Source of the DNA: a virus
Lineage: Duplodnaviria > Heunggongvirae > Uroviricota > Caudoviricetes
Length of the DNA stretch: 39,296 nucleotides
Strand: one strand, 5' to 3'
Virus record (IMG/VR): IMGVR_UViG_2541047784_000014
Shown: piece after piece, positions 6,073 through 36,501 of the stretch
Position numbering within the stretch: the stretch's first letter is position 1
How the letters are laid out: every line of letters begins with the position of its first letter
The notes under the pieces: model-generated
Told to the model about the DNA's origin: nothing
Databases searched by the model: none
The model's input: the letters and a program-made list of their open reading frames with translations, nothing else
Translations under genes and position numbers: made by a program

Positions 6073-6175
6073 GTTAAATCTCCAGATAGTCGCAGCACCC
6101 GTTGCGCCGCATATCTGGTTATTCTATTACCTGAAAAACCACATATGGATAGATAATCCATAAATACGAAAAGAT

Positions 6176-6192: not shown

Positions 6193-6230
6193 TTGCAAAA
6201 CGTGCTGGATAGCAAACAAATTATTTGCTA

Positions 6231-6246
6231 CTGTATAAATATACAG
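6231..6246. promoter_or_regulatory. LexA (SOS) box CTGTATAAATATACAG
   Basis: CTGT-N8-ACAG with an AT-rich centre, near-identical to the E. coli consensus TACTGTATATATATACAGTA; 22 nt upstream of the ATG at 6268; an internal TATAAAT could be the -10 element. Confidence 0.7.
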
Positions 6247-6267
6247 TTATTGCATGGAGAAGATAAG

Positions 6268-6525
6268 ATGCAGCAGTATCACTATCCACTGGAAGACGGA
6301 TTTACCGAAAGGATTCACACGCCGGGAGGCGTCAGGTCACTGGTGGAGGGATCGCACTTGATGAAATTACTCCGGGATCTCGATAAGGATGGATTTAATG
6401 TCGATGGCCCACTTGCCGAACTGACTGCACTGATTAACTACGTCACCAGCTCACAGATGTCTATGCAGGATCTGCAAACACATCTCGACTATTGTGCCGA
6501 ACAATTACGAAAGCAAACCAGATAA
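6268..6525 (+). CDS. Small antirepressor-like protein, paralog of the C-terminal domain of the adjacent Bro-N antirepressor
   Basis: ATG with GGAG 10 nt upstream; residues TPGGVRSLVEGSHLMKLLRDL...DLQTHLDYCAEQ parallel SPSGVLGLTENSLLMNLLNQL...DIQTHAEYINDK at the end of the 6839-7531 product; directly downstream of the LexA box. Confidence 0.6.
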   Translation: MQQYHYPLEDGFTERIHTPGGVRSLVEGSHLMKLLRDLDKDGFNVDGPLAELTALINYVTSSQMSMQDLQTHLDYCAEQLRKQTR

Positions 6526-6555: not shown

Positions 6556-6572
6556 TTTACCTTTGCGGTAAA
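6556..6572. promoter_or_regulatory. Dyad operator-like site TTTACCTTTGCGGTAAA
   Basis: Same motif family; nested in a longer inverted repeat GGAGTGC...GCACTCC (6544-6587). Confidence 0.45.
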
Positions 6573-6664
6573 TTTACATCGCACTCCTCTTGTGCCATAG
6601 TAATCGGGCACTGGCAAAATCCAGTGCCGGGATTGGTCTCCCGGATTACTACAGAGGCACATAT

Positions 6665-6684
6665 GCCGCATAAGCGGTTTTTTT
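6665..6684 (+). terminator. Putative Rho-independent terminator
   Basis: Short hairpin CCGC-ataa-GCGG followed by seven T; preceded by a stable hairpin GGCACTGG-caaaat-CCAGTGCC (6607-6628). Confidence 0.45.
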
Positions 6685-6838
6685 ATGTGTAAAGCGCACC
6701 TATTCTATGGTGGGCTGTGTGGGGGCACCGAAAGGTGCGCCGGGTTCCTTTGTAGCCGGTAAGACCAACTCTGCACAGTTCACCACCATCTGATTGGTCT
6801 CAGCGGTGGTGATTAACCTAACTACAAAGGTGATCGCC

Positions 6839-7531
6839 ATGAATACCAAACCTTCCATCTTTTCCTTTGAGTCATCCTGCCAGATCCGTATGTTCATGAT
6901 TGACGGAGAACCTTGGTTTGTCACCAAAGATGTGTGCAATGCTTTGAATATTGATGTTACACAAGCGAGAAAACTTGATAAAAAAGGCTGGAACAAAAAG
7001 GGGCTGTATTCAATACAGACCCCTGGTGGAATACAAGAACTATCCATCGTTTCAGAATCAGGTCTCTACATCCTTATTCTGCGTTGCAAAGAGGCTATGA
7101 CAGAGGGAACGAGAGCATTCAGATTTCTTGAATGGGTTACAGGTGAGGTTCTTCCTCAGATCCGCCGCACCGGAAGTTACATTAAAAACTCGCTCCCGCA
7201 GGAAGAACGCATAAAGATGGTTGCCGACCAGGTAGCCAACGCCACGGCGTCAGCAGTAATGCAGGCGATGAAGATAGAGAACAAAACCTACAGTGCCCCG
7301 CTGAAGCCCGGCTACCGCAGCCTGATTCACTCGCCGTCTGGTGTTCTCGGCCTGACGGAGAACTCACTGCTGATGAATCTGCTGAACCAGTTACAGGAAG
7401 ACGGGCACGACGTATCGGGCGCGGCGGCGGAGCTGACCACCATGTTCTGCTACATCGTCGGTGTGAGTAAATGCCTGCGTGATATCCAGACGCACGCGGA
7501 GTACATCAACGACAAGGCTGGGTTCTTCTGA
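6839..7531 (+). CDS. Antirepressor with Bro-N domain
   Basis: Start set at the ATG (MNTKPSIFSF...) with AAGGTG 8 nt upstream; N-terminus has the Bro-N pattern (F.F......R....DGEPWF.A.DV...L); C-terminal domain is paralogous to the 6268-6525 product. Confidence 0.8.
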   Translation: MNTKPSIFSFESSCQIRMFMIDGEPWFVTKDVCNALNIDVTQARKLDKKGWNKKGLYSIQTPGGIQELSIVSESGLYILILRCKEAMTEGTRAFRFLEWVTGEVLPQIRRTGSYIKNSLPQEERIKMVADQVANATASAVMQAMKIENKTYSAPLKPGYRSLIHSPSGVLGLTENSLLMNLLNQLQEDGHDVSGAAAELTTMFCYIVGVSKCLRDIQTHAEYINDKAGFF

Positions 7532-7638: not shown

Positions 7639-7848
7639 ATGGGATTTTGGTTCGCTCGTACAAAAACGAGGGATAATGCACCCAGCCCTCAGGCAAAAAA
7701 TGCAGAAGTTCCGGCGTCAGCGCAGGTTAACAAGCGTGGTGGAGTATATATCTCATCACAGCAAATTTCTGAGCTTCCTGAGGTTAAGGAGATGCGTCGT
7801 CTCGCTGCTGCAATTGTTAAACAGGATCTTGCCACTGTAAGGAAGTAG
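7639..7848 (+). CDS. Hypothetical small protein (69 aa), first gene of an accessory two-gene operon
   Basis: ATG preceded by GAGGAGGAG; stop TAG overlaps the GTG of the next gene (TAGTG). Confidence 0.6.
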   Translation: MGFWFARTKTRDNAPSPQAKNAEVPASAQVNKRGGVYISSQQISELPEVKEMRRLAAAIVKQDLATVRK

Positions 7849-8714
7849 TGTTGCTAGCTCTTCTAATTATCCCAATCCTGGTTAGCGGTTATATTATGAT
7901 AACCGCTAACCAGTATCATTATTTCCGTTTATACCGACACGAAGGCCAGCTTCTTTATATGAAAGTAGCGGCACTAGGTACATATTGCCTTGTTGCATCA
8001 GTAATAATTGCAGCCGCTATAAAATATAAATGGCCTGATTTTCACCTAGTTCACGATATGGTGGAAACTTTTAATGTAACATCAAAACCAGAAACAGATA
8101 GAATTTACATGTGGCTGCTTCTTCTCTCAGCCACATCCATTTGCTTCTCTTTGTGTTATGTGTCTGTTGTGTGGGTGAAAGATTTTCTTCTTGGTTGTTT
8201 TTATAAACGTGATATTTACGAGCAAAAAACAGAGGCAATGAAGGCCAGAGTACTGCGAAAAACTTACTCGCAAGGTTCTTTAGACTTACTATTGCTTGAT
8301 GCTATTGAATCGGATCCTAAACGACCAATGCTGATTACTTTATCATCAAACAAAGTGTATGTTGGAATAATAAATGGTTCTGGTGAACCAACGGAAAATC
8401 AGGGTCCGCATCAGCACATATCTTTTGTTCCTTTAATGTCAGGATACAGGAACAAAGAAAACTTATCTGTCACATTCACTAATGCTTATCCAGGAGAAAT
8501 ACAGGTCAAGCGGACTGCAGCAATAAGAGGAATTAGCAGAAAGAAAGTGCCAGGACTTGAGATCATGGTGTCTATTGACGAAATAAGTTATATATCATGG
8601 TTTGATTTTGAAGTATATAAAGCAACAAATAACAAAGTAGAATCCAGGGGGCACGTTATTCGTGTTACCAAAAATGGAAGAAATATATATCAAAGAAATA
8701 GCAAAAAAGAATAG
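7848..8714 (+). CDS. Hypothetical inner-membrane protein (about 3 N-terminal TM segments plus a roughly 170-aa soluble domain); candidate superinfection-exclusion or abortive-infection factor
   Basis: Long AT-rich ORF with hydrophobic N-terminus, translationally coupled to the 69-aa gene and followed by a strong terminator. Start uncertain (GTG 7848, TTG 7851 or ATG 7896). Function is inference only. Confidence 0.65.
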   Translation: MLLALLIIPILVSGYIMITANQYHYFRLYRHEGQLLYMKVAALGTYCLVASVIIAAAIKYKWPDFHLVHDMVETFNVTSKPETDRIYMWLLLLSATSICFSLCYVSVVWVKDFLLGCFYKRDIYEQKTEAMKARVLRKTYSQGSLDLLLLDAIESDPKRPMLITLSSNKVYVGIINGSGEPTENQGPHQHISFVPLMSGYRNKENLSVTFTNAYPGEIQVKRTAAIRGISRKKVPGLEIMVSIDEISYISWFDFEVYKATNNKVESRGHVIRVTKNGRNIYQRNSKKE

Positions 8715-8735
8715 CCCGCGCTGCGGGCTTTTTTG
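8713..8735 (+). terminator. Rho-independent terminator
   Basis: Hairpin AGCCCGC-gct-GCGGGCT followed by a T-run, immediately after the stop at 8712-8714. Confidence 0.8.
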
Positions 8736-8772
8736 TGTCTGCGGATTCCCGCCCGGGCGGCGGTGGCATTCG

Positions 8773-8798
8773 TTAAAAACAAGGCCGCGAAAGCGGCC
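8773..8798 (-). terminator. Rho-independent terminator for the minus-strand gene 8813-9262
   Basis: Hairpin GGCCGC-gaaa-GCGGCC (8783-8798) followed on the minus strand by UUGUUUUU. Confidence 0.7.
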
Positions 8799-8799
8799 T

Positions 8800-8811
8800 G
8801 TGACATGTCAC
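8800..8811. repeat. 12-bp perfect palindrome GTGACATGTCAC (copy 1 of 3)
   Basis: Identical 12-mer also at 25802-25813 and 28066-28077, each next to a terminator-type hairpin; here it lies between the stop codon (8813-8815) and the terminator hairpin. Confidence 0.6.
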
Positions 8812-8812
8812 G

Positions 8813-9262
8813 CTACTTGCGAAATCTTTCTTTACCCTTCCAGCCAGTAGATGTTAGTTCAGGATGAATGGTTCCCAATATAAAGCCAACCATAGCGGAG
8901 CGAGGATCTTCTATTTTATCCGTTAATTCTTCGGCATAACTCACAGGCAACCAAGCAACAAGATCACCAATCCTCAGCTTTGGTCCTTTGCTGTAAGATG
9001 AATCGGCAATAACAAAAAATCCACCATCAGCTGAGCACACCTTCAGCATTGCCCTTTGTCTTCCAGAATCTAGCAAAACTGGCTGTTCCCCACTTGGACC
9101 AGGTATGATGATGGCTGGCATTGGTTTATTGGCTGAAAGGCTTGTGTCAAGATACTTACACGCATACTCAAAAGCTGAAAAGTTATCCTTAAAGATAAGA
9201 GGTTGAATTTTATTGCTAACCTCCTTACCACCGATTAATCTGTTGATCATCTTCTTGAACAT
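8813..9262 (-). CDS. Hypothetical protein (about 149 aa)
   Basis: ORF with in-frame ATG codons at 9262 and 9250 (the track start is a GTG at 9271); moderately AT-rich; followed by palindrome and terminator. Confidence 0.55.
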   Translation of the reverse strand: MFKKMINRLIGGKEVSNKIQPLIFKDNFSAFEYACKYLDTSLSANKPMPAIIIPGPSGEQPVLLDSGRQRAMLKVCSADGGFFVIADSSYSKGPKLRIGDLVAWLPVSYAEELTDKIEDPRSAMVGFILGTIHPELTSTGWKGKERFRK

Positions 9263-9274
9263 AAAGGTCACCTA

Positions 9275-9715
9275 ATGATTAAGCCGATGCACGCTATTAC
9301 AGCTACCGTTTTGTTTATCCTACCAATTTTTTCGTTTGCAAACGACATATGTTTTAAGAATTTAATAAATGAGGATATGTGTGCACATGCAAACAAAATT
9401 GCATCAGAAGCAGGAAAGTCACTTCCCATAAAATTGAATGATAATATGTCTATTGTTTCAATAAATGCAATACTAAACAAACTTTTAGTTGTAGCGCATC
9501 TTAATTACAACAACAGCTATTTATCAAAAGTTTATAACGGTGATGTAACCTTAGAAAATAAATTAAAGAGTGTAATGCGAAATTATTCAAAATCGAGCAT
9601 TTGCTCCAACAGGCAAATGAAAGCATTTATTCACCTTGGCGGAGAGATTGAATATAGGTATGTATTTAGTGATGGCAATATATTTGATACATACGCCATC
9701 ACTAATTGTGAATAG
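9275..9715 (+). CDS. Secreted (signal-peptide) Cys-containing protein, AT-rich accessory gene
   Basis: Predicted signal peptide (probable cleavage after FSFA); 4 Cys in the mature part; very AT-rich; on the strand opposite to the flanking late genes, its stop codon abutting the convergent stop of the 1129-aa gene (TAG/CTA at 9713-9718). Confidence 0.6.
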   Translation: MIKPMHAITATVLFILPIFSFANDICFKNLINEDMCAHANKIASEAGKSLPIKLNDNMSIVSINAILNKLLVVAHLNYNNSYLSKVYNGDVTLENKLKSVMRNYSKSSICSNRQMKAFIHLGGEIEYRYVFSDGNIFDTYAITNCE

Positions 9716-25494: not shown

Positions 25495-25571
25495 GTGGCA
25501 TTAGCTCAGTTGGACAGAGCAACCGCCTTCTAAGCGGTTGGTCGCAGGTTCGAATCCTGCATGCCACGCCA
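25495..25571 (+). tRNA. tRNA-Arg, anticodon UCU
   Basis: Full cloverleaf: acceptor GTGGCAT/ATGCCAC, D-arm GCTC-AGTTGGACA-GAGC, anticodon stem ACCGC/GCGGT with loop CTTCTAA, T-arm GCAGG-TTCGAAT-CCTGC, discriminator G and encoded CCA; close to E. coli argU. Confidence 0.9.
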
Positions 25572-32995: not shown

Positions 32996-33226
32996 TCATG
33001 AGTAGAAGAAGTATGCCAGTTCTGCTTTTGAGCGCAGCCATTGTCTTGTTTTACAGGCTTTAAAAAGCCCATTCATCAATACCTTACCTGGCATTTTGCG
33101 CTTACCTGTTAAGTGAGTCTGGATATAGTGACTCGTCGTTCCGGCTTCCTGTGCGAAGGCTTCACGCTCATCCGGAGTAAGTGCAAGCCAGTGCTTTTTG
33201 AAATCGAAATGTCCGTTATCGCTCAT
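32996..33226 (-). CDS. Cro-like HTH regulator
   Basis: 76-aa helix-turn-helix protein transcribed divergently from the repressor-like gene toward the replication genes. Confidence 0.65.
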   Translation of the reverse strand: MSDNGHFDFKKHWLALTPDEREAFAQEAGTTSHYIQTHLTGKRKMPGKVLMNGLFKACKTRQWLRSKAELAYFFYS

Positions 33227-33292
33227 AGCTATTGCCTGATATTTATTTCAGATAATAAATATTCACCCATAAGGTAACAAAAATCAAGGATA

Positions 33293-33309
33293 GTTACCTA
33301 TGAGGTGCA
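33293..33309. promoter_or_regulatory. Dyad operator-like site GTTACCTATGAGGTGCA (imperfect)
   Basis: In the divergent Cro/repressor intergenic region, directly abutting the next site; a GGTAAC half-site lies at 33273-33278. Confidence 0.4.
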
Positions 33310-33326
33310 TTTACCTGTTGGGTAAT
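33310..33326. promoter_or_regulatory. Dyad operator-like site TTTACCTGTTGGGTAAT
   Basis: Near-perfect dyad in the divergent Cro/repressor intergenic region. Confidence 0.5.
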
Positions 33327-33380
33327 ATTGCTTTAAATTGAATCATCTACTGATTCATATATGAGGCGATTTTCCAGAAA

Positions 33381-33965
33381 ATGAAAAGTATCCAGGACGT
33401 CCGCAGGCAAAATCTCAACGACTTGATCGACCGTGAATTCAATGGTGTTCAGACGCGGATGGCAGAAAAACTTGGAACTCAGGCAAATCTGGTAAACCGC
33501 TGGGCTCTTGGCAAGAAGGTTATCGGCGACCAGGTTGCGCGAAAAATTGAAGCTGCCGCCAATAAACCCCGTAACTGGCTTGATATCGATCGCTCGCTTT
33601 CTCAGGAAGGTTTTCAGCCTGTCGGCCCAAGCGACATTGGTCAGCTGGCGGCTCACAACCTGGAACGCTGGATGAGCGAAAGCCGCGACCTTTCAACGCA
33701 GGGAAAACTTCACCGCGCATCCGGCGTCGCCCAGGTGACAATCAGTCGCCTGTTAAACAATGAGGTCAGCGTTTCCATTTCCACCCTGGAGAATGTTGCA
33801 TCCGCATTCGGGCGTCACGGATATGAACTACTGATTCACCCGCACGACCCTGCGACTATCAACTATGACCGCTCGCGCTACGCATTGTTACCCGAAACCG
33901 AGAAAGCAAAGATCGAAAGTTACATTGAATTTGTCATCAACCAGAACGAAAAAAGCAAACAATAA
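33381..33965 (+). CDS. Repressor-like protein with two predicted HTH regions and no recognisable S24 peptidase domain
   Basis: HTH-like segments near residues 25-45 and 115-135; no Ala-Gly/Ser-Lys autocleavage signature seen by eye; cI-like position; followed by a strong terminator. Confidence 0.7.
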   Translation: MKSIQDVRRQNLNDLIDREFNGVQTRMAEKLGTQANLVNRWALGKKVIGDQVARKIEAAANKPRNWLDIDRSLSQEGFQPVGPSDIGQLAAHNLERWMSESRDLSTQGKLHRASGVAQVTISRLLNNEVSVSISTLENVASAFGRHGYELLIHPHDPATINYDRSRYALLPETEKAKIESYIEFVINQNEKSKQ

Positions 33966-33986
33966 AACTATATTTTTCAGTAAGTA

Positions 33987-34009
33987 AGCCGCCTCATGGC
34001 GGCTTTTTT
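33987..34009 (+). terminator. Rho-independent terminator after the repressor-like gene
   Basis: Hairpin AGCCGCC-tcat-GGCGGCT followed by TTTTT. Confidence 0.8.
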
Positions 34010-34021
34010 ATTGCCAGATAG

Positions 34022-34038
34022 ATTACCTTACGGGTAAT
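34022..34038. promoter_or_regulatory. Dyad operator-like site ATTACCTTACGGGTAAT
   Basis: Perfect arms; upstream of a TTGACA hexamer (34057-34062) at the head of the + strand early operon (pL-like position). Confidence 0.5.
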
Positions 34039-34083
34039 TTTTTTAACTCATATCTATTGACACCAAACCAAATAAGCATAATT

Positions 34084-34100
34084 ATTACCTCAACGGTAAC
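34084..34100. promoter_or_regulatory. Dyad operator-like site ATTACCTCAACGGTAAC
   Basis: Second site of the pL-like region, about 20 bp downstream of TTGACA. Confidence 0.45.
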
Positions 34101-34273: not shown

Positions 34274-34573
34274 ATGAACGTTAATCAGCAGAAAAATCTT
34301 CAAAAAATCATGCTGGCATTCGACAAGGACTACCGCCTGTCAGAACAGCTATATGACCGACAAGTTGAACTGATTGAGAGCATCCGACTTCATCAACTGT
34401 CCTCAACTTTCGACGTTGTAACAGGCAAAGGCGTTCGTCAGGAAGTGCTGGAGGCTGCTAAAGACAGCCCTGAGTTCGAAGAACTGATGGATGCCTACCG
34501 GCGCGAGGCAATGGCAATTATAGCGCGCTGGGATCTGGCGGATCAGCTTGATGGGCAGAGGGACGCGGCATGA
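34274..34573 (+). CDS. Hypothetical early protein
   Basis: Start set at the ATG (MNVNQQ...) preceded by GGGAGGG; stop overlaps the exonuclease start. Confidence 0.6.
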   Translation: MNVNQQKNLQKIMLAFDKDYRLSEQLYDRQVELIESIRLHQLSSTFDVVTGKGVRQEVLEAAKDSPEFEELMDAYRREAMAIIARWDLADQLDGQRDAA

Positions 34574-35469
34574 TGCGGAACGCTGGAATCATGGATAGAA
34601 CAAAATACATCGGAGGAAGCGATGTTGCAGGGATTCTTGGAATTAGCCCATGGCGCACCCCGCTTGAGGTTTATCTGGATAAGGTCCAGCCACGTGTCAA
34701 ACCAGTAGACCAAAGCAAGCAGAAAGTTTTCACGCGTGGCCAGCGTATGGAGCCATACGTAATAGACCTGCTTTCTGAGGAAACAGGGATGGAAATCGTT
34801 CATCGCGGAAACCGCTATATCCACCGTGATTACGATTTTATTGCAGCTGAGATCGATGCAGAAGCAGCGTCAGGCGAGAACATTGAGATCAAAACAGTTA
34901 GTCCGTTCAAGGCCAAAGAATGGGGAGAAATCCAGACAGATGCAATTCCTGTGCATTACACGGCCCAGGCCATGCACGGGTTGATGGTTACAAACAAACA
35001 GGTATGCGTTTTCGGTGTGCTTATCGGTGGCGACGACTTCCGAATCTATCGGGTTGAGCGTGATGAAGAAACTATCCAGGCGATCTTAGAAAAAGAAATC
35101 GCTTTCTGGGACCGAGTGAAAAATCTTAACCCGCCGGAAGCTACCAGCGTAAGCGATGTATCGCTGATGTTTGAGAAAGATGCCGGGACAAGTATCGAGG
35201 CTGACGGAAAGGCACTCGCACTATTCAACGATCTACGAGACATGAAATCACGCAGAAAATCACTGGAAGAAGAAATAGCTATATCAGAAGAGAAGCTGAA
35301 GATGTACATGCAAGAGCACTCAGTCCTGACCCTGGACGGAAAGCCGCTCTGCACATGGAAATCTCAGATCAGCAACAGATTCGACCAGAAGCTATTCCAG
35401 TCAGTACACCCTGAGTTATTCGAAAAATTCAAAACAACAACGACACAACGCGTCTTCAGAATGAAGTAA
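34570..35469 (+). CDS. YqaJ-like recombination exonuclease
   Basis: N-terminal IGGSDVAGILGISPWRTPLEVY pattern of YqaJ/lambda-exonuclease-like proteins; immediately upstream of RecT. Confidence 0.8.
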   Translation: MMRNAGIMDRTKYIGGSDVAGILGISPWRTPLEVYLDKVQPRVKPVDQSKQKVFTRGQRMEPYVIDLLSEETGMEIVHRGNRYIHRDYDFIAAEIDAEAASGENIEIKTVSPFKAKEWGEIQTDAIPVHYTAQAMHGLMVTNKQVCVFGVLIGGDDFRIYRVERDEETIQAILEKEIAFWDRVKNLNPPEATSVSDVSLMFEKDAGTSIEADGKALALFNDLRDMKSRRKSLEEEIAISEEKLKMYMQEHSVLTLDGKPLCTWKSQISNRFDQKLFQSVHPELFEKFKTTTTQRVFRMK

Positions 35470-35478
35470 GGAGAAAAA

Positions 35479-36501
35479 ATGTCTATCAATGCACTTAAGG
35501 CAGCGGCTACCGGTAACCAAGTTGCACATCATAATGAGAAACCAACAACTCTGGCCGGACTTCTGGCAGACCCAAAAATTAAAGCTCAGATGGCTTTGGC
35601 ACTTCCAAAGCACATGACAGCAGACCGTCTGGCGCGCATAGCAACCACAGAGATCAGAAAGGTTCCAAAACTTGCATCATGCGACCAAGCCAGCTTCCTG
35701 GGGGCAATTATGCAATGTGCCCAATTGGGTCTTGAACCAGGCGGAGCTCTTGGACACGCTTACCTGATACCGTTCGACAAACGCCAGAAAGTAAATGGAA
35801 GATGGGAAACCGTATCTACAGAAGCACAGCTGATTATCGGCTATCGCGGAATGATTGACCTTGCCCGCCGCTCTGGGCAGATCCTGAGTATCTCGGCTCG
35901 TACCGTACATACAAACGACAAATTCAGCTACTCATACGGCCTGGAAGAAACGCTCGAGCATTTACCTTGCGAAACAGGTGACCGCGGAGAATTAACGCAC
36001 GTTTACGCCGTTGCACGACTGAAAGATGGCGGAGTCCAATTTGAAGTTATGAGCCGGGCAGACGTTGAGAAAGTTCGTGCACTGAGCAAAGCCGGTAGCA
36101 GTGGCCCATGGGTTGATCACTTCGATGAGATGGCTAAAAAAACAGTAATTCGCCGACTGTTCAAATATCTTCCTGTTTCTATTGAAATGCAGAAGGCTGT
36201 TGTTATGGATGAGCGCGCTGAAGCTGGACTTAGCCAAGATAACGCAGCTGTTATCACTGGTGAATATTCCGTAGTTGACGATGAGCGTCAACACCTGTCG
36301 CCAATTTCAGATTCAGAACGAGAAGAAGCTCGAGAATATATCATCGCGATACTTAATAGCCTGGATCCATCTGCTGAAGATGCAAAAACGATGTTCAAGC
36401 GCGCTGAAAATGAAATTAACACCATGGCTGAAAAGCTCGGTGATGAATATCACCAAAAATTCATGATGACGCTTAACGATATGCGTCCAGAATTCGAGTA
36501 A
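35479..36501 (+). CDS. RecT-like single-strand annealing recombinase
   Basis: 340 aa; AAGGAG RBS; paired with the upstream exonuclease as in Rac/lambdoid recombination modules. Confidence 0.75.
   Translation: MSINALKAAATGNQVAHHNEKPTTLAGLLADPKIKAQMALALPKHMTADRLARIATTEIRKVPKLASCDQASFLGAIMQCAQLGLEPGGALGHAYLIPFDKRQKVNGRWETVSTEAQLIIGYRGMIDLARRSGQILSISARTVHTNDKFSYSYGLEETLEHLPCETGDRGELTHVYAVARLKDGGVQFEVMSRADVEKVRALSKAGSSGPWVDHFDEMAKKTVIRRLFKYLPVSIEMQKAVVMDERAEAGLSQDNAAVITGEYSVVDDERQHLSPISDSEREEAREYIIAILNSLDPSAEDAKTMFKRAENEINTMAEKLGDEYHQKFMMTLNDMRPEFE

What the first reader, a model, noticed from the sequence alone, without database searches (positions are those of the whole stretch)
33381..33965. 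Lysogeny repressor candidate has two HTH regions and no recognisable autocleavage domain
The cI-position protein (194 aa) shows two helix-turn-helix-like segments and none of the S24 peptidase hallmarks seen by eye. With the LexA-box antirepressor module elsewhere, induction is predicted to work by antirepression rather than RecA-stimulated cleavage.
Basis: inference. Interest (0 to 1): 0.55.

Follow-up and report, generated by a model that had tools for sequence, protein, structure and literature searches.

The report
Known non-cleavable phage repressor (SPC32H-type Rep)
This gene encodes the lysogeny repressor of a phiV10/epsilon15-like E. coli phage; it has no self-cleavage domain and is almost certainly switched off by a small LexA-controlled antirepressor, as already shown by genetics and crystal structures for its homolog in Salmonella phage SPC32H, so the finding is correct but ordinary.

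Summary
The ORF at 33381-33965 (+, 194 aa) is real. It has two HTH-type regions (Cro/YdaS-like at aa 20-61, Pfam HTH_3 at aa 104-147). No S24 peptidase shows up by Pfam, profile-versus-PDB or fold search, and there is no Ala-Gly or Cys-Gly site.

The window is a phiV10/epsilon15-like Uetakevirus. The protein is 99.5% identical to phiV10 gp40, which GenBank already annotates as "putative repressor, two helix-turn-helix motifs". It is a full-length homolog (E 3.5e-42) of SPC32H Rep (PDB 5D50/5D4Z).

The LexA box (6231-6246) precedes a gene (6268-6525) whose product is 88% identical to SPC32H Ant, the other chain in 5D50. The operator dyad, LexA box and ant layout is conserved in phages of four host genera.

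Two corrections:
- In the solved homolog the second "HTH" is a dimerization domain.
- A third, C-terminal tetramerization/Ant-binding domain was missed.

Noticed in passing: a second antirepressor (a Bro-N domain fused to an Ant-like domain) sits behind isrK and C4 antisense RNAs, resembling P1 immI. SPC32H lacks this module.

The parts
33381..33965 (+). rep: 194-aa lysogeny repressor, ortholog of phiV10 gp40, ZX5 ORF21 and SPC32H Rep
   Evidence: ORF. 99.5% identical to phiV10 gp40 and 100% to the HEMP4 protein. Full-length hit to PDB 5D50_A at E 3.5e-42. Overexpressing the identical ZX5/phiV10 protein abolishes free phage.
33381..33590 (+). N-terminal Cro/YdaS-type HTH domain (aa 1-70), the inferred DNA-binding domain
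   Evidence: YdaS/Cro-type hits. Net charge +4, the only basic domain. 54% identical to SPC32H Rep, with N36, R40 and W41 of the NLVNRW helix invariant. The DBD is at the N-terminus in SPC32H Rep.
33645..33830 (+). Middle HTH_3-like domain (aa 89-150), equivalent to the middle dimerization domain (MDD) of SPC32H Rep
   Evidence: Pfam HTH_3 at aa 104-147. Aligns to the 5D4Z construct. Least conserved domain, 34% identity. MDD assignment from the literature.
33831..33962 (+). C-terminal domain (aa 151-194), equivalent to the CAD tetramerization/Ant-binding domain
   Evidence: 50% identical to SPC32H Rep, with a conserved motif (G144, Y148, E149, Y162, L170, F184 invariant). CAD function from the literature.
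33986..34015 (+). Intrinsic terminator after rep
   Evidence: 8-bp GC-rich stem plus a T-run. Annotated as a terminator in phiV10.
33263..33325 (.). O_R-like operator cluster: three TTACC-N5-GGTAA dyads (33263, 33294, 33311) between rep and the cro-like gene. The first overlaps a leftward promoter-like site (33280-33252).
   Evidence: Same three-site layout, with the 17-bp adjacent pair, as in SPC32H.
34023..34099 (.). O_L-like operator pair (34023, 34085; 62 bp apart) bracketing a promoter-like site (TTGACA-17-AATTAT, 34057-34085) for the recombination operon
   Evidence: The 62-bp spacing is conserved in SPC32H. Equivalent sites are annotated as repressor-binding in epsilon15.
32996..33226 (-). 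Divergent 76-aa Cro/cII-like early gene (phiV10 gp41)
   Evidence: phrog_35 'transcriptional repressor', E 5.6e-13. Annotation.
6229..6248 (+). LexA box TACTGTATAAATATACAGTT (18 of 20 matches to the consensus as I recall it), 20 bp upstream of the ant ATG
   Evidence: Conserved upstream of ant in SPC32H, epsilon15, Tyrion and (with one mismatch) a Klebsiella phage. The SPC32N mutation lies in this box.
6268..6525 (+). ant: 85-aa antirepressor, ortholog of SPC32H Ant
   Evidence: E 4e-47 to PDB 5D50_E 'Anti-repressor protein'. 88% identity. Co-occurs with rep in 35 of 36 phage records.
6177..6191 (.). Rep-type dyad in the tailspike-ant divergent intergenic region, about 40 bp upstream of the LexA box
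   Evidence: Invariant in five phages. Annotated as 'protein_bind: repressor' in epsilon15.
6608..6684 (+). isrK-family Hfq-binding RNA with its own terminator
   Evidence: Rfam RF01394, 74.7 bits against a gathering score of 50.
6703..6790 (+). C4 antisense RNA (P1/P7 immI type)
   Evidence: Rfam RF01695, 78.6 bits against a gathering score of 45. Its loop CCUUUGUAG and 3' UCACCACC are complementary to 6822-6830 (covering the SD of the next gene) and 6805-6812.
6839..7531 (+). Second antirepressor: Bro-N domain fused to a C-terminal Ant-like domain
   Evidence: Pfam Bro-N, E 2e-13. C-terminal 74 aa are 42% identical to Ant, E 6e-16. phrog_450 hit at E 3e-37. C-terminal ~120 aa are identical to ZX5 ORF4, whose overexpression lowers prophage titre 1000-fold.

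Best explanation
The gene encodes the prophage maintenance repressor (Rep) of a phiV10/epsilon15-like temperate podophage. By homology with SPC32H Rep it has three parts: an N-terminal HTH DNA-binding domain, a middle HTH-fold domain used for dimerization, and a short C-terminal domain that assembles two dimers into a tetramer. The tetramer binds 17-bp ATTACC-N5-GGTAAT dyads. These flank rep (O_R-like and O_L-like clusters) and also lie at several other intergenic sites, which keeps the lytic promoters off. Rep has no S24 protease domain, so RecA* cannot make it cleave itself. Instead, host LexA represses a small gene, ant, located 27 kb away next to the tailspike gene. DNA damage removes LexA, Ant is made, and Ant binds the C-terminal domain of Rep. 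This splits the Rep tetramer into dimers that no longer hold the operators, and the prophage is induced. Shown here: the homologies, the absence of S24, the LexA box, the operator layout and the co-occurrence of Rep with Ant. Shown elsewhere for close relatives: repressor function of the identical ZX5/phiV10 protein, and the Rep-Ant complex and LexA control in SPC32H. Inferred: that this 44%-identical Rep is likewise uncleaved and is disassembled by its 88%-identical Ant.
For: Full-length match to the PDB 5D50 Rep chain (E 3.5e-42; family profile E 9.9e-65). Foldseek top hits are only 5D50 and 5D4Z. Ant matches 5D50 chain E at E 4e-47 and 88% identity. A perfect CTGT-N8-ACAG box lies 20 bp upstream of ant; four such sites occur in the window against 0.43 expected, and this one matches 18 of 20 consensus positions. 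The dyad, LexA box and SD/ATG are conserved in phages of Escherichia, Salmonella, Enterobacter and Klebsiella. SPC32H and SPC32N differ at two bases, one of which breaks this LexA box. Rep and Ant co-occur in 35 of 36 phage records. There are ten perfect TTACC-N5-GGTAA dyads, far more than chance predicts, all intergenic and at positions syntenic with SPC32H, with conserved 17/18-bp and 62-bp spacings. No S24 by any test and no AG/CG site. Overexpressing the identical repressor in ZX5 removes free phage and cuts lysis-gene transcripts by 99.97-99.99%. Literature on the domain roles and on Ant-driven tetramer disassembly.
Against: Identity to the characterised SPC32H Rep is only 44% overall (50% in the Ant-binding domain, 34% in the middle domain). 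Non-cleavage, tetramer formation and Ant binding have not been shown for this allele. The primary SPC32H papers (J Virol 2013, PNAS 2016) were not available in the held library, so the mechanistic details come from secondary citations and my own recollection. The monomer AlphaFold model is only moderately confident (pLDDT 76.5, pTM 0.40) and does not reproduce the beta-strand of the C-terminal domain. The ZX5 study did not test the small Ant or DNA damage.
Confidence: 0.87

Rival explanations
1. Rep is still inactivated proteolytically after DNA damage, through a cryptic or non-S24 route (RecA-stimulated cleavage at a non-canonical site, or damage-induced degradation by Lon or ClpXP). Ant would then be accessory.
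For: Nothing positive here. Only the disordered linker at aa 74-83, which is the kind of region where cleavage sites usually lie.
Against: No S24 domain in 37 of 37 family members, in the profile-versus-PDB search or in the fold search. No Ala-Gly or Cys-Gly site. One base change in the ant LexA box is one of only two differences between SPC32H and its constitutively inducing sibling. The review literature states that cleavage is not the route for these phages.
Confidence: 0.04
2. Both HTH regions bind DNA, as the reader's 'two HTH regions' implies, so that one Rep chain reads two DNA segments. The middle HTH_3 domain would be a second DNA-binding module rather than only a dimerization domain.
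For: The middle domain is the stronger Pfam HTH_3 match and keeps a canonical HTH_3 sequence pattern with invariant Q107 and R123. The family profile also matches the DNA-binding XRE regulator NHTF (3VK0) over positions 83-173. The ZX5 authors assume the C-terminal HTH binds DNA.
Against: In the solved SPC32H Rep this domain is described as the dimerization domain, and the DBD is N-terminal. The middle domain has net charge 0 against +4 for the N-terminal domain. It is also the least conserved domain (34%), although both phages share the same operator half-sites.
Confidence: 0.1
3. The protein is not the immunity repressor but an HTH antitoxin or accessory regulator (one record labels it 'VapI antidote'; the PDB profile has weak HigA hits).
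For: BP9 annotation 'plasmid maintenance system antidote protein VapI'. Weak HigA matches at E 0.02-0.2.
Against: The gene is in the cI position between divergent early operons with flanking operator clusters. It is annotated as the repressor in epsilon15, SPC32H and phiV10. Overexpression of the same protein blocks lytic growth. There is no adjacent toxin gene.
Confidence: 0.02

Closest known systems
Rep/Ant lytic switch of Salmonella podophage SPC32H (PDB 5D4Z, 5D50; Kim & Ryu 2013 J Virol; Kim et al. 2016 PNAS)
   Same: Same phage genus (Uetakevirus) and same gene positions (rep between divergent early operons; ant divergent from the tailspike gene). Full-length Rep homology, Ant 88% identical, the same LexA box position, and the same TTACC-N5-GGTAA operator half-sites and site spacings.
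   Different: Rep is only 44% identical, and the central 5 bp of the operators are less A/T-rich. The window phage also carries an isrK + C4 RNA + Bro-N-Ant-fusion module that SPC32H lacks.
phiV10 gp40 / vB_EcoP_ZX5 ORF21 repressor (GenBank DQ126339; Li et al. 2022, PMC9782041)
   Same: Essentially the same protein (99.5% identity). GenBank already notes 'two helix-turn-helix motifs', and ZX5 overexpression shows repressor activity.
   Different: Those sources do not link the protein to SPC32H Rep, to LexA or to the small Ant, which they annotate as 'hypothetical protein'.
LexA-controlled antirepressors of other temperate phages (186 Tum; Gifsy-1/-3 GfoA/GfhA; N15 AntC)
   Same: The same logic: a non-cleavable repressor, with a LexA box on a small antirepressor gene that couples induction to the SOS response.
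   Different: No sequence relationship was detected: Ant has no significant Pfam hit and falls in phrog_450 'unknown function'. Ant acts by breaking up a repressor tetramer via its C-terminal domain rather than by occupying the DNA-binding surface.
Lambda CI / P22 C2 / LexA family (HTH plus S24 autopeptidase)
   Same: An N-terminal Cro/C1-type HTH, the cI gene position, flanking O_L/O_R-like operator clusters, and oligomerization through C-terminal domains.
   Different: No S24 domain, no Ala-Gly site and no Ser/Lys dyad context. Inactivation is reversible and non-proteolytic.
P1/P7 immI (C1 operator - c4 - icd - ant1/2) and the Gifsy-1 isrK-orf45-anrP locus
   Same: For the second antirepressor only: a C4-family antisense RNA directly upstream of an antirepressor gene with complementarity over its RBS, an isrK-family RNA in front, and a main-repressor dyad at the head of the module.
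   Different: There is no icd-like ORF between C4 and the antirepressor gene (only 48 nt). The antirepressor is a Bro-N domain fused to an SPC32H-Ant-like domain, not P1 Ant1/2.

Membership tests
SPC32H-type Rep repressors (PDB 5D50_A / 5D4Z) | Full-length sequence homology to SPC32H Rep | tested here: met
   phmmer E 3.5e-42 over aa 1-190. Family profile E 9.9e-65. 43.8% global identity.
SPC32H-type Rep repressors (PDB 5D50_A / 5D4Z) | Three-part architecture: N-terminal HTH DBD, middle HTH-fold dimerization domain, C-terminal tetramerization/Ant-binding domain | tested here: met
   Colinear alignment over all three parts. AlphaFold shows two helical domains plus a C-terminal helix. Foldseek top hits are 5D50 and 5D4Z, with TM 0.71 on the C-terminal construct. 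The C-terminal beta-strand is not reproduced in the monomer model.
SPC32H-type Rep repressors (PDB 5D50_A / 5D4Z) | Cognate Ant gene in the same genome | tested here: met
   ant at 6268-6525, 88% identical to SPC32H Ant. Co-occurrence in 35 of 36 phage records.
SPC32H-type Rep repressors (PDB 5D50_A / 5D4Z) | ant promoter region carries a LexA box | tested here: met
   CTGTATAAATATACAG at 6231-6246. Conserved in five phages. The SPC32N mutation maps to it.
SPC32H-type Rep repressors (PDB 5D50_A / 5D4Z) | Same operator dyads and layout | tested here: met
   Ten perfect TTACC-N5-GGTAA sites in each genome at syntenic positions, with 17/18-bp and 62-bp spacings.
SPC32H-type Rep repressors (PDB 5D50_A / 5D4Z) | Rep is not cleaved on SOS induction, forms a tetramer on DNA, and is dissociated by tetrameric Ant | not testable with these tools
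   Needs a western blot, SEC/AUC, and pull-down or EMSA. Known for SPC32H only.
LexA / lambda CI-type autocleaving repressors | C-terminal Peptidase_S24 domain with a Ser/Lys dyad | tested here: not met
   No S24 hit at E<=1 in the protein or in 37 homologs. None in the profile-versus-PDB search at E<=1. None among the Foldseek PDB hits.
LexA / lambda CI-type autocleaving repressors | Ala-Gly (or Cys-Gly) scissile bond in the inter-domain linker | tested here: not met
   No AG or CG dipeptide anywhere, and no cysteine.
LexA / lambda CI-type autocleaving repressors | N-terminal Cro/C1-type HTH DNA-binding domain | tested here: met
   YdaS/Cro/HTH_3-type hits at aa 20-61.
P1 immI-type RNA-controlled antirepressor module (for the second antirepressor at 6608-7531) | C4-family antisense RNA immediately upstream of the antirepressor gene | tested here: met
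   RF01695, 78.6 bits, at 6703-6790.
P1 immI-type RNA-controlled antirepressor module (for the second antirepressor at 6608-7531) | C4 segments complementary to the downstream ribosome-binding region | tested here: met
   9-nt and 8-nt perfect complements at 6822-6830 (SD region) and 6805-6812.
P1 immI-type RNA-controlled antirepressor module (for the second antirepressor at 6608-7531) | icd-like ORF between c4 and ant, translationally coupled to ant | tested here: not met
   Only 48 nt separate the C4 end (6790) from the ATG at 6839.

The most novel reading that the evidence does not exclude
phiV10-type E. coli phages may feed two independent signals into one non-cleavable repressor through the same Ant fold. 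One signal is the small LexA-controlled Ant (SOS). The other is a Bro-N-Ant-domain fusion held off by a P1-immI-like C4 antisense RNA plus an isrK RNA, and bracketed by Rep operators at 6557 and 7598. The second arm would give a positive-feedback or superinfection-sensing route that SPC32H lacks. To my knowledge, nobody has described the Ant-like domain of the Bro-N protein or its RNA control in these phages.
Probability: 0.35. Interest if true: 0.4.

Novelty: already known. Interest (0 to 1): 0.12.

Why it matters
For the finding itself, little is new. The two-HTH architecture has been in the phiV10 GenBank record since the genome was deposited. The same protein was shown to act as a repressor in ZX5. 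The non-cleavable-repressor/LexA-antirepressor mechanism was solved genetically and structurally in SPC32H.

The practical value lies in annotation:
- This rep allele is present at 95% identity or more in 537 of 5426 complete E. coli genomes, where it is labelled only 'helix-turn-helix domain-containing protein'.
- Its partner Ant is 'hypothetical protein' in nearly all E. coli phage records and 'unknown function' in PHROGs.

Transferring the SPC32H knowledge would explain SOS induction of a common E. coli prophage type, including O157-specific phiV10, which is used for reporter and biocontrol phage engineering.

Tried and rejected
- I tried to read the primary SPC32H papers (DOIs and PMC3807360, PMC4983836) and the epsilon15 genome paper (PMC2698709). 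None is held, so the mechanistic statements rest on secondary citations and, where marked, on my memory.
- I tested whether the two HTH regions are an internal duplication. BLASTP finds no similarity between aa 1-73 and aa 82-156, so this is rejected.
- I tested for a cryptic S24 domain four ways: Pfam on the single sequence, Pfam on 37 homologs, a profile search of the PDB, and Foldseek. All were negative.
- I considered the antisense ORF at 33333-33656 (107 aa). It has no PHROG hit and is treated as spurious.
- My first script used a wrong Ant start (6269) and produced a frame-shifted nonsense alignment. This was corrected to ATG 6268.
- The consensus promoter scan did not call an ant promoter. 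The -10/-35 assignment overlapping the LexA box remains by eye only and is not claimed.
- I considered whether the scattered dyads were a new observation. They are not: the epsilon15 GenBank record annotates the equivalent sites as repressor-binding.

Full report
**What is at the coordinates.** An ATG-to-stop ORF occupies exactly 33381-33965 on the + strand and encodes 194 aa. It is followed by an intrinsic terminator at 33986-34005. It is divergent from a 76-aa Cro/cII-like gene (32996-33226, phrog_35), behind which lie DnaT/O-like and lambda-P-like replication genes. Downstream on the same strand is a YqaJ-exonuclease/RecT recombination operon. This is the classical cI position. An antisense ORF at 33333-33656 has no family hits and is treated as spurious.

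**Which element this is.** The immunity region is about 98% identical in DNA to Escherichia phage phiV10 and a dozen relatives of the genus Uetakevirus, the epsilon15-like temperate podophages. The protein is 100% identical to that of phage HEMP4 and 99.5% identical to phiV10 gp40, ZX5 ORF21 and others. The phiV10 GenBank record already annotates it as [quoted passage not shown]. The same allele, at 95% nucleotide identity or more, occurs in 537 of 5426 complete E. coli genomes, where it is labelled only "helix-turn-helix domain-containing protein".

**Checking the observation.**
- Pfam finds HTH_3 at aa 104-147 (E 1.2e-9, above the curated cut-off; two stretches) and a YdaS/Cro-type HTH at aa 21-61. 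The latter is sub-threshold in this sequence, but it is matched by 37 of 37 homologs with a best E of 3.5e-9.
- An AlphaFold model built on a 37-sequence alignment (pLDDT 76.5) shows two helical domains (aa 4-59 and 83-151). They are separated by a disordered linker at aa 74-83 and followed by a long C-terminal helix at aa 172-193.
- The two HTH regions show no detectable similarity to each other, so they are not a recent duplication.
- Peptidase_S24 is absent from the protein and from all 37 homologs at E<=1. It is also absent from a family-profile search of all PDB sequences at E<=1 and from the Foldseek hits of the model against the PDB.
- The sequence contains no Ala-Gly or Cys-Gly dipeptide and no cysteine.

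**What it is.** The protein matches chain A ("Repressor") of PDB 5D50, [quoted passage not shown], over its whole length (E 3.5e-42). It also matches 5D4Z, the C-terminal construct. The family profile gives E 9.9e-65, and the only significant fold matches are these two entries. The GenBank record of SPC32H (KC911856) annotates the homolog as rep. Global identity is 43.8%: 54% in aa 1-70, 22% in the linker, 34% in aa 89-150 and 50% in aa 151-194.

The literature describes SPC32H Rep as having three domains:
- an N-terminal DNA-binding domain;
- a middle dimerization domain (MDD);
- a C-terminal domain (CAD, a p53-like "TetDloop") that both tetramerizes Rep and binds the antirepressor.

In that description the tetramer is the DNA-binding form. 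The DNA-binding domain pairs come from different dimers, and a tetrameric Ant binds two Rep dimers and breaks the tetramer. Two results here fit the N-terminal domain being the DNA reader: it is the only net-basic part (+4, against 0 and -1), and its NLVNRW helix has invariant N36, R40 and W41.

**The antirepressor half.**
- A perfect LexA box, CTGTATAAATATACAG (6231-6246), matches 18 of 20 positions of the consensus as I recall it. It lies 20 bp upstream of an 85-aa gene at 6268-6525.
- The product of that gene matches chain E ("Anti-repressor protein") of 5D50 at E 4e-47 and is 88% identical to SPC32H Ant.
- As in SPC32H, ant is divergent from the tailspike/tail-fibre gene.
- An alignment of this intergenic region from the window, SPC32H, epsilon15, Enterobacter phage Tyrion and a Klebsiella phage shows three conserved elements: a 17-bp dyad (its ATTACC and GGTAA arms invariant), the LexA box (one mismatch in the Klebsiella phage), and the SD/ATG.
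- I diffed the SPC32H and SPC32N genomes directly. They differ at two positions only, and one converts the ACAG arm of this LexA box to AAAG. This fits my recollection of Kim & Ryu 2013 that SPC32N makes Ant constitutively.
- Rep and Ant homologs co-occur in 35 of 36 phage records.
- A review states that in these Salmonella phages repressor cleavage is not the route, and that a LexA-controlled antirepressor inactivates the repressor by protein-protein contact.

**Operators.** The core TTACC-N5-GGTAA occurs ten times perfectly in the window. With up to two mismatches there are 36 sites, against 10.9 +/- 3.1 in shuffles, and a perfect 10-base palindrome is expected about 0.04 times by my arithmetic.
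- All ten perfect sites are intergenic. Three sites (one perfect, two degenerate) lie between rep and the cro-like gene: 33263, 33294 and 33311. The first overlaps a leftward promoter-like site.
- Two sites 62 bp apart (34023, 34085) bracket a TTGACA-17-AATTAT promoter-like site for the recombination operon.
- Other sites lie upstream of the small terminase gene (27956/27974), upstream of the portal operon (25159), after the P gene (30894/30956, again 62 bp apart), next to the ant LexA box (6177), and on either side of the second antirepressor module (6557, 7598).
- SPC32H has ten perfect sites with the same half-sites at syntenic positions and the same 17/18-bp and 62-bp spacings.
- The epsilon15 GenBank record annotates the equivalent sites as "protein_bind: repressor (lysogeny)" and notes "HHpred: 5d50_A Repressor" on its repressor CDS. 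Neither the operators nor the structural link is therefore new.

**Direct functional evidence for this allele.** In phage vB_EcoP_ZX5, overexpressing ORF21 reduced free phage to zero and cut endolysin and holin transcripts by 99.99% and 99.97%. The paper states that ORF21 has the same sequence as phiV10 gp40. That paper does not mention SPC32H, LexA or the small Ant, which ZX5 annotates as "hypothetical protein" although it is 100% identical to the window's Ant.

**Mechanism and confidence.** The best explanation (0.87) is the SPC32H mechanism: a non-cleavable tetrameric Rep on the dyads, LexA-repressed ant, and Ant-driven disassembly of Rep after DNA damage. The following are inferred by homology rather than shown: that this allele is not cleaved, that it forms a tetramer, and that its 50%-identical C-terminal domain binds its Ant. 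Three rivals were considered:
- cryptic proteolysis (0.04);
- a DNA-binding role for the middle HTH as well (0.10; this refines the main model rather than competing with it);
- an antitoxin-type regulator (0.02).

**Noticed beyond the finding.** Between ant and the next protein gene, Rfam detects two RNAs above gathering thresholds: an isrK-family RNA (6608-6684, 74.7 bits) and a C4 antisense RNA (6703-6790, 78.6 bits). The gene that follows (6839-7531) encodes a Bro-N domain. It is fused to a C-terminal domain that is 42% identical to Ant (E 6e-16) and hits the Ant PHROG at E 3e-37. The C4 loop CCUUUGUAG and the 3' segment UCACCACC are perfectly complementary to 6822-6830 (over the SD) and 6805-6812. 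This matches the way P1 C4 is described as blocking antirepressor expression. ZX5 has the same RNAs, and its ORF4 "anti-repressor" is identical over the C-terminal ~120 aa. Overexpressing ORF4 lowered the prophage titre from 1e9 to 1e6. SPC32H lacks the whole module. This points to a second, RNA-gated input into the same repressor. I rate that reading at 0.35 probability and moderate interest.

**Verdict.** The novelty class is "already known". Interest is 0.12.

Noticed in passing
window 6608-7531: An isrK-family RNA (6608-6684) and a C4 antisense RNA (6703-6790) precede a Bro-N protein gene (6839-7531). That protein's C-terminal 74 aa are 42% identical to the small Ant. C4 has 9-nt and 8-nt perfect complements over the gene's SD region. 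This is a P1-immI-like, RNA-gated second antirepressor. It is present in ZX5 (C-terminal ~120 aa identical to the experimentally tested ORF4) and absent from SPC32H.
   Followed up: partly
window 6177, 6557, 7598, 25159, 27974 (+27956), 30894, 30956, 33311 (+33263, 33294), 34023, 34085 (+32926): Ten perfect TTACC-N5-GGTAA dyads plus degenerate partners, all intergenic, lie at positions syntenic with SPC32H. Spacings recur at 17/18 bp and 62 bp (about six helical turns), which fits one Rep tetramer bridging two dyads. The equivalent sites are already annotated as repressor-binding in the epsilon15 GenBank record.
   Followed up: partly
window 6268-6525 and 33381-33965: There is an annotation gap. 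The Ant family is 'unknown function' in PHROGs (phrog_450) and 'hypothetical protein' in nearly all E. coli phage records, despite the 5D50 crystal structure. The rep allele is 'helix-turn-helix domain-containing protein' in 537 of 5426 complete E. coli genomes, and one phage record calls it a 'VapI antidote'.
   Followed up: yes
window 6120-6150: A second conserved block, CATTCTATTACC..AAAACC.TATATG, lies in the tailspike-ant intergenic region and is nearly invariant across five phages. It contains one TTACC half-site. Epsilon15 annotates an IHF site next to the repressor site in this region. It may belong to the tailspike promoter.
   Followed up: no
window 34570-36501: The recombination module is a separate YqaJ-type exonuclease (299 aa) and RecT (340 aa), with the same gene lengths as in epsilon15 (900 and 1023 nt). 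phiV10 instead annotates a single fused 'recET' CDS of 1761 nt, which indicates module exchange or a frameshift difference among close relatives.
   Followed up: no
window 25495-25571: A tRNA-Arg (anticodon TCT) lies between the large terminase gene and the portal operon, at the same relative position as the tRNA-Arg of SPC32H.
   Followed up: no
window 7639-9715: A block of four ORFs (69, 288, 152 and 146 aa, on mixed strands) lies between the antirepressor module and the large virion protein gene. They match only PHROGs of unknown function and have no Pfam domains. This is a likely moron or accessory region, with a Rep-type dyad (7598) at its head.
   Followed up: no
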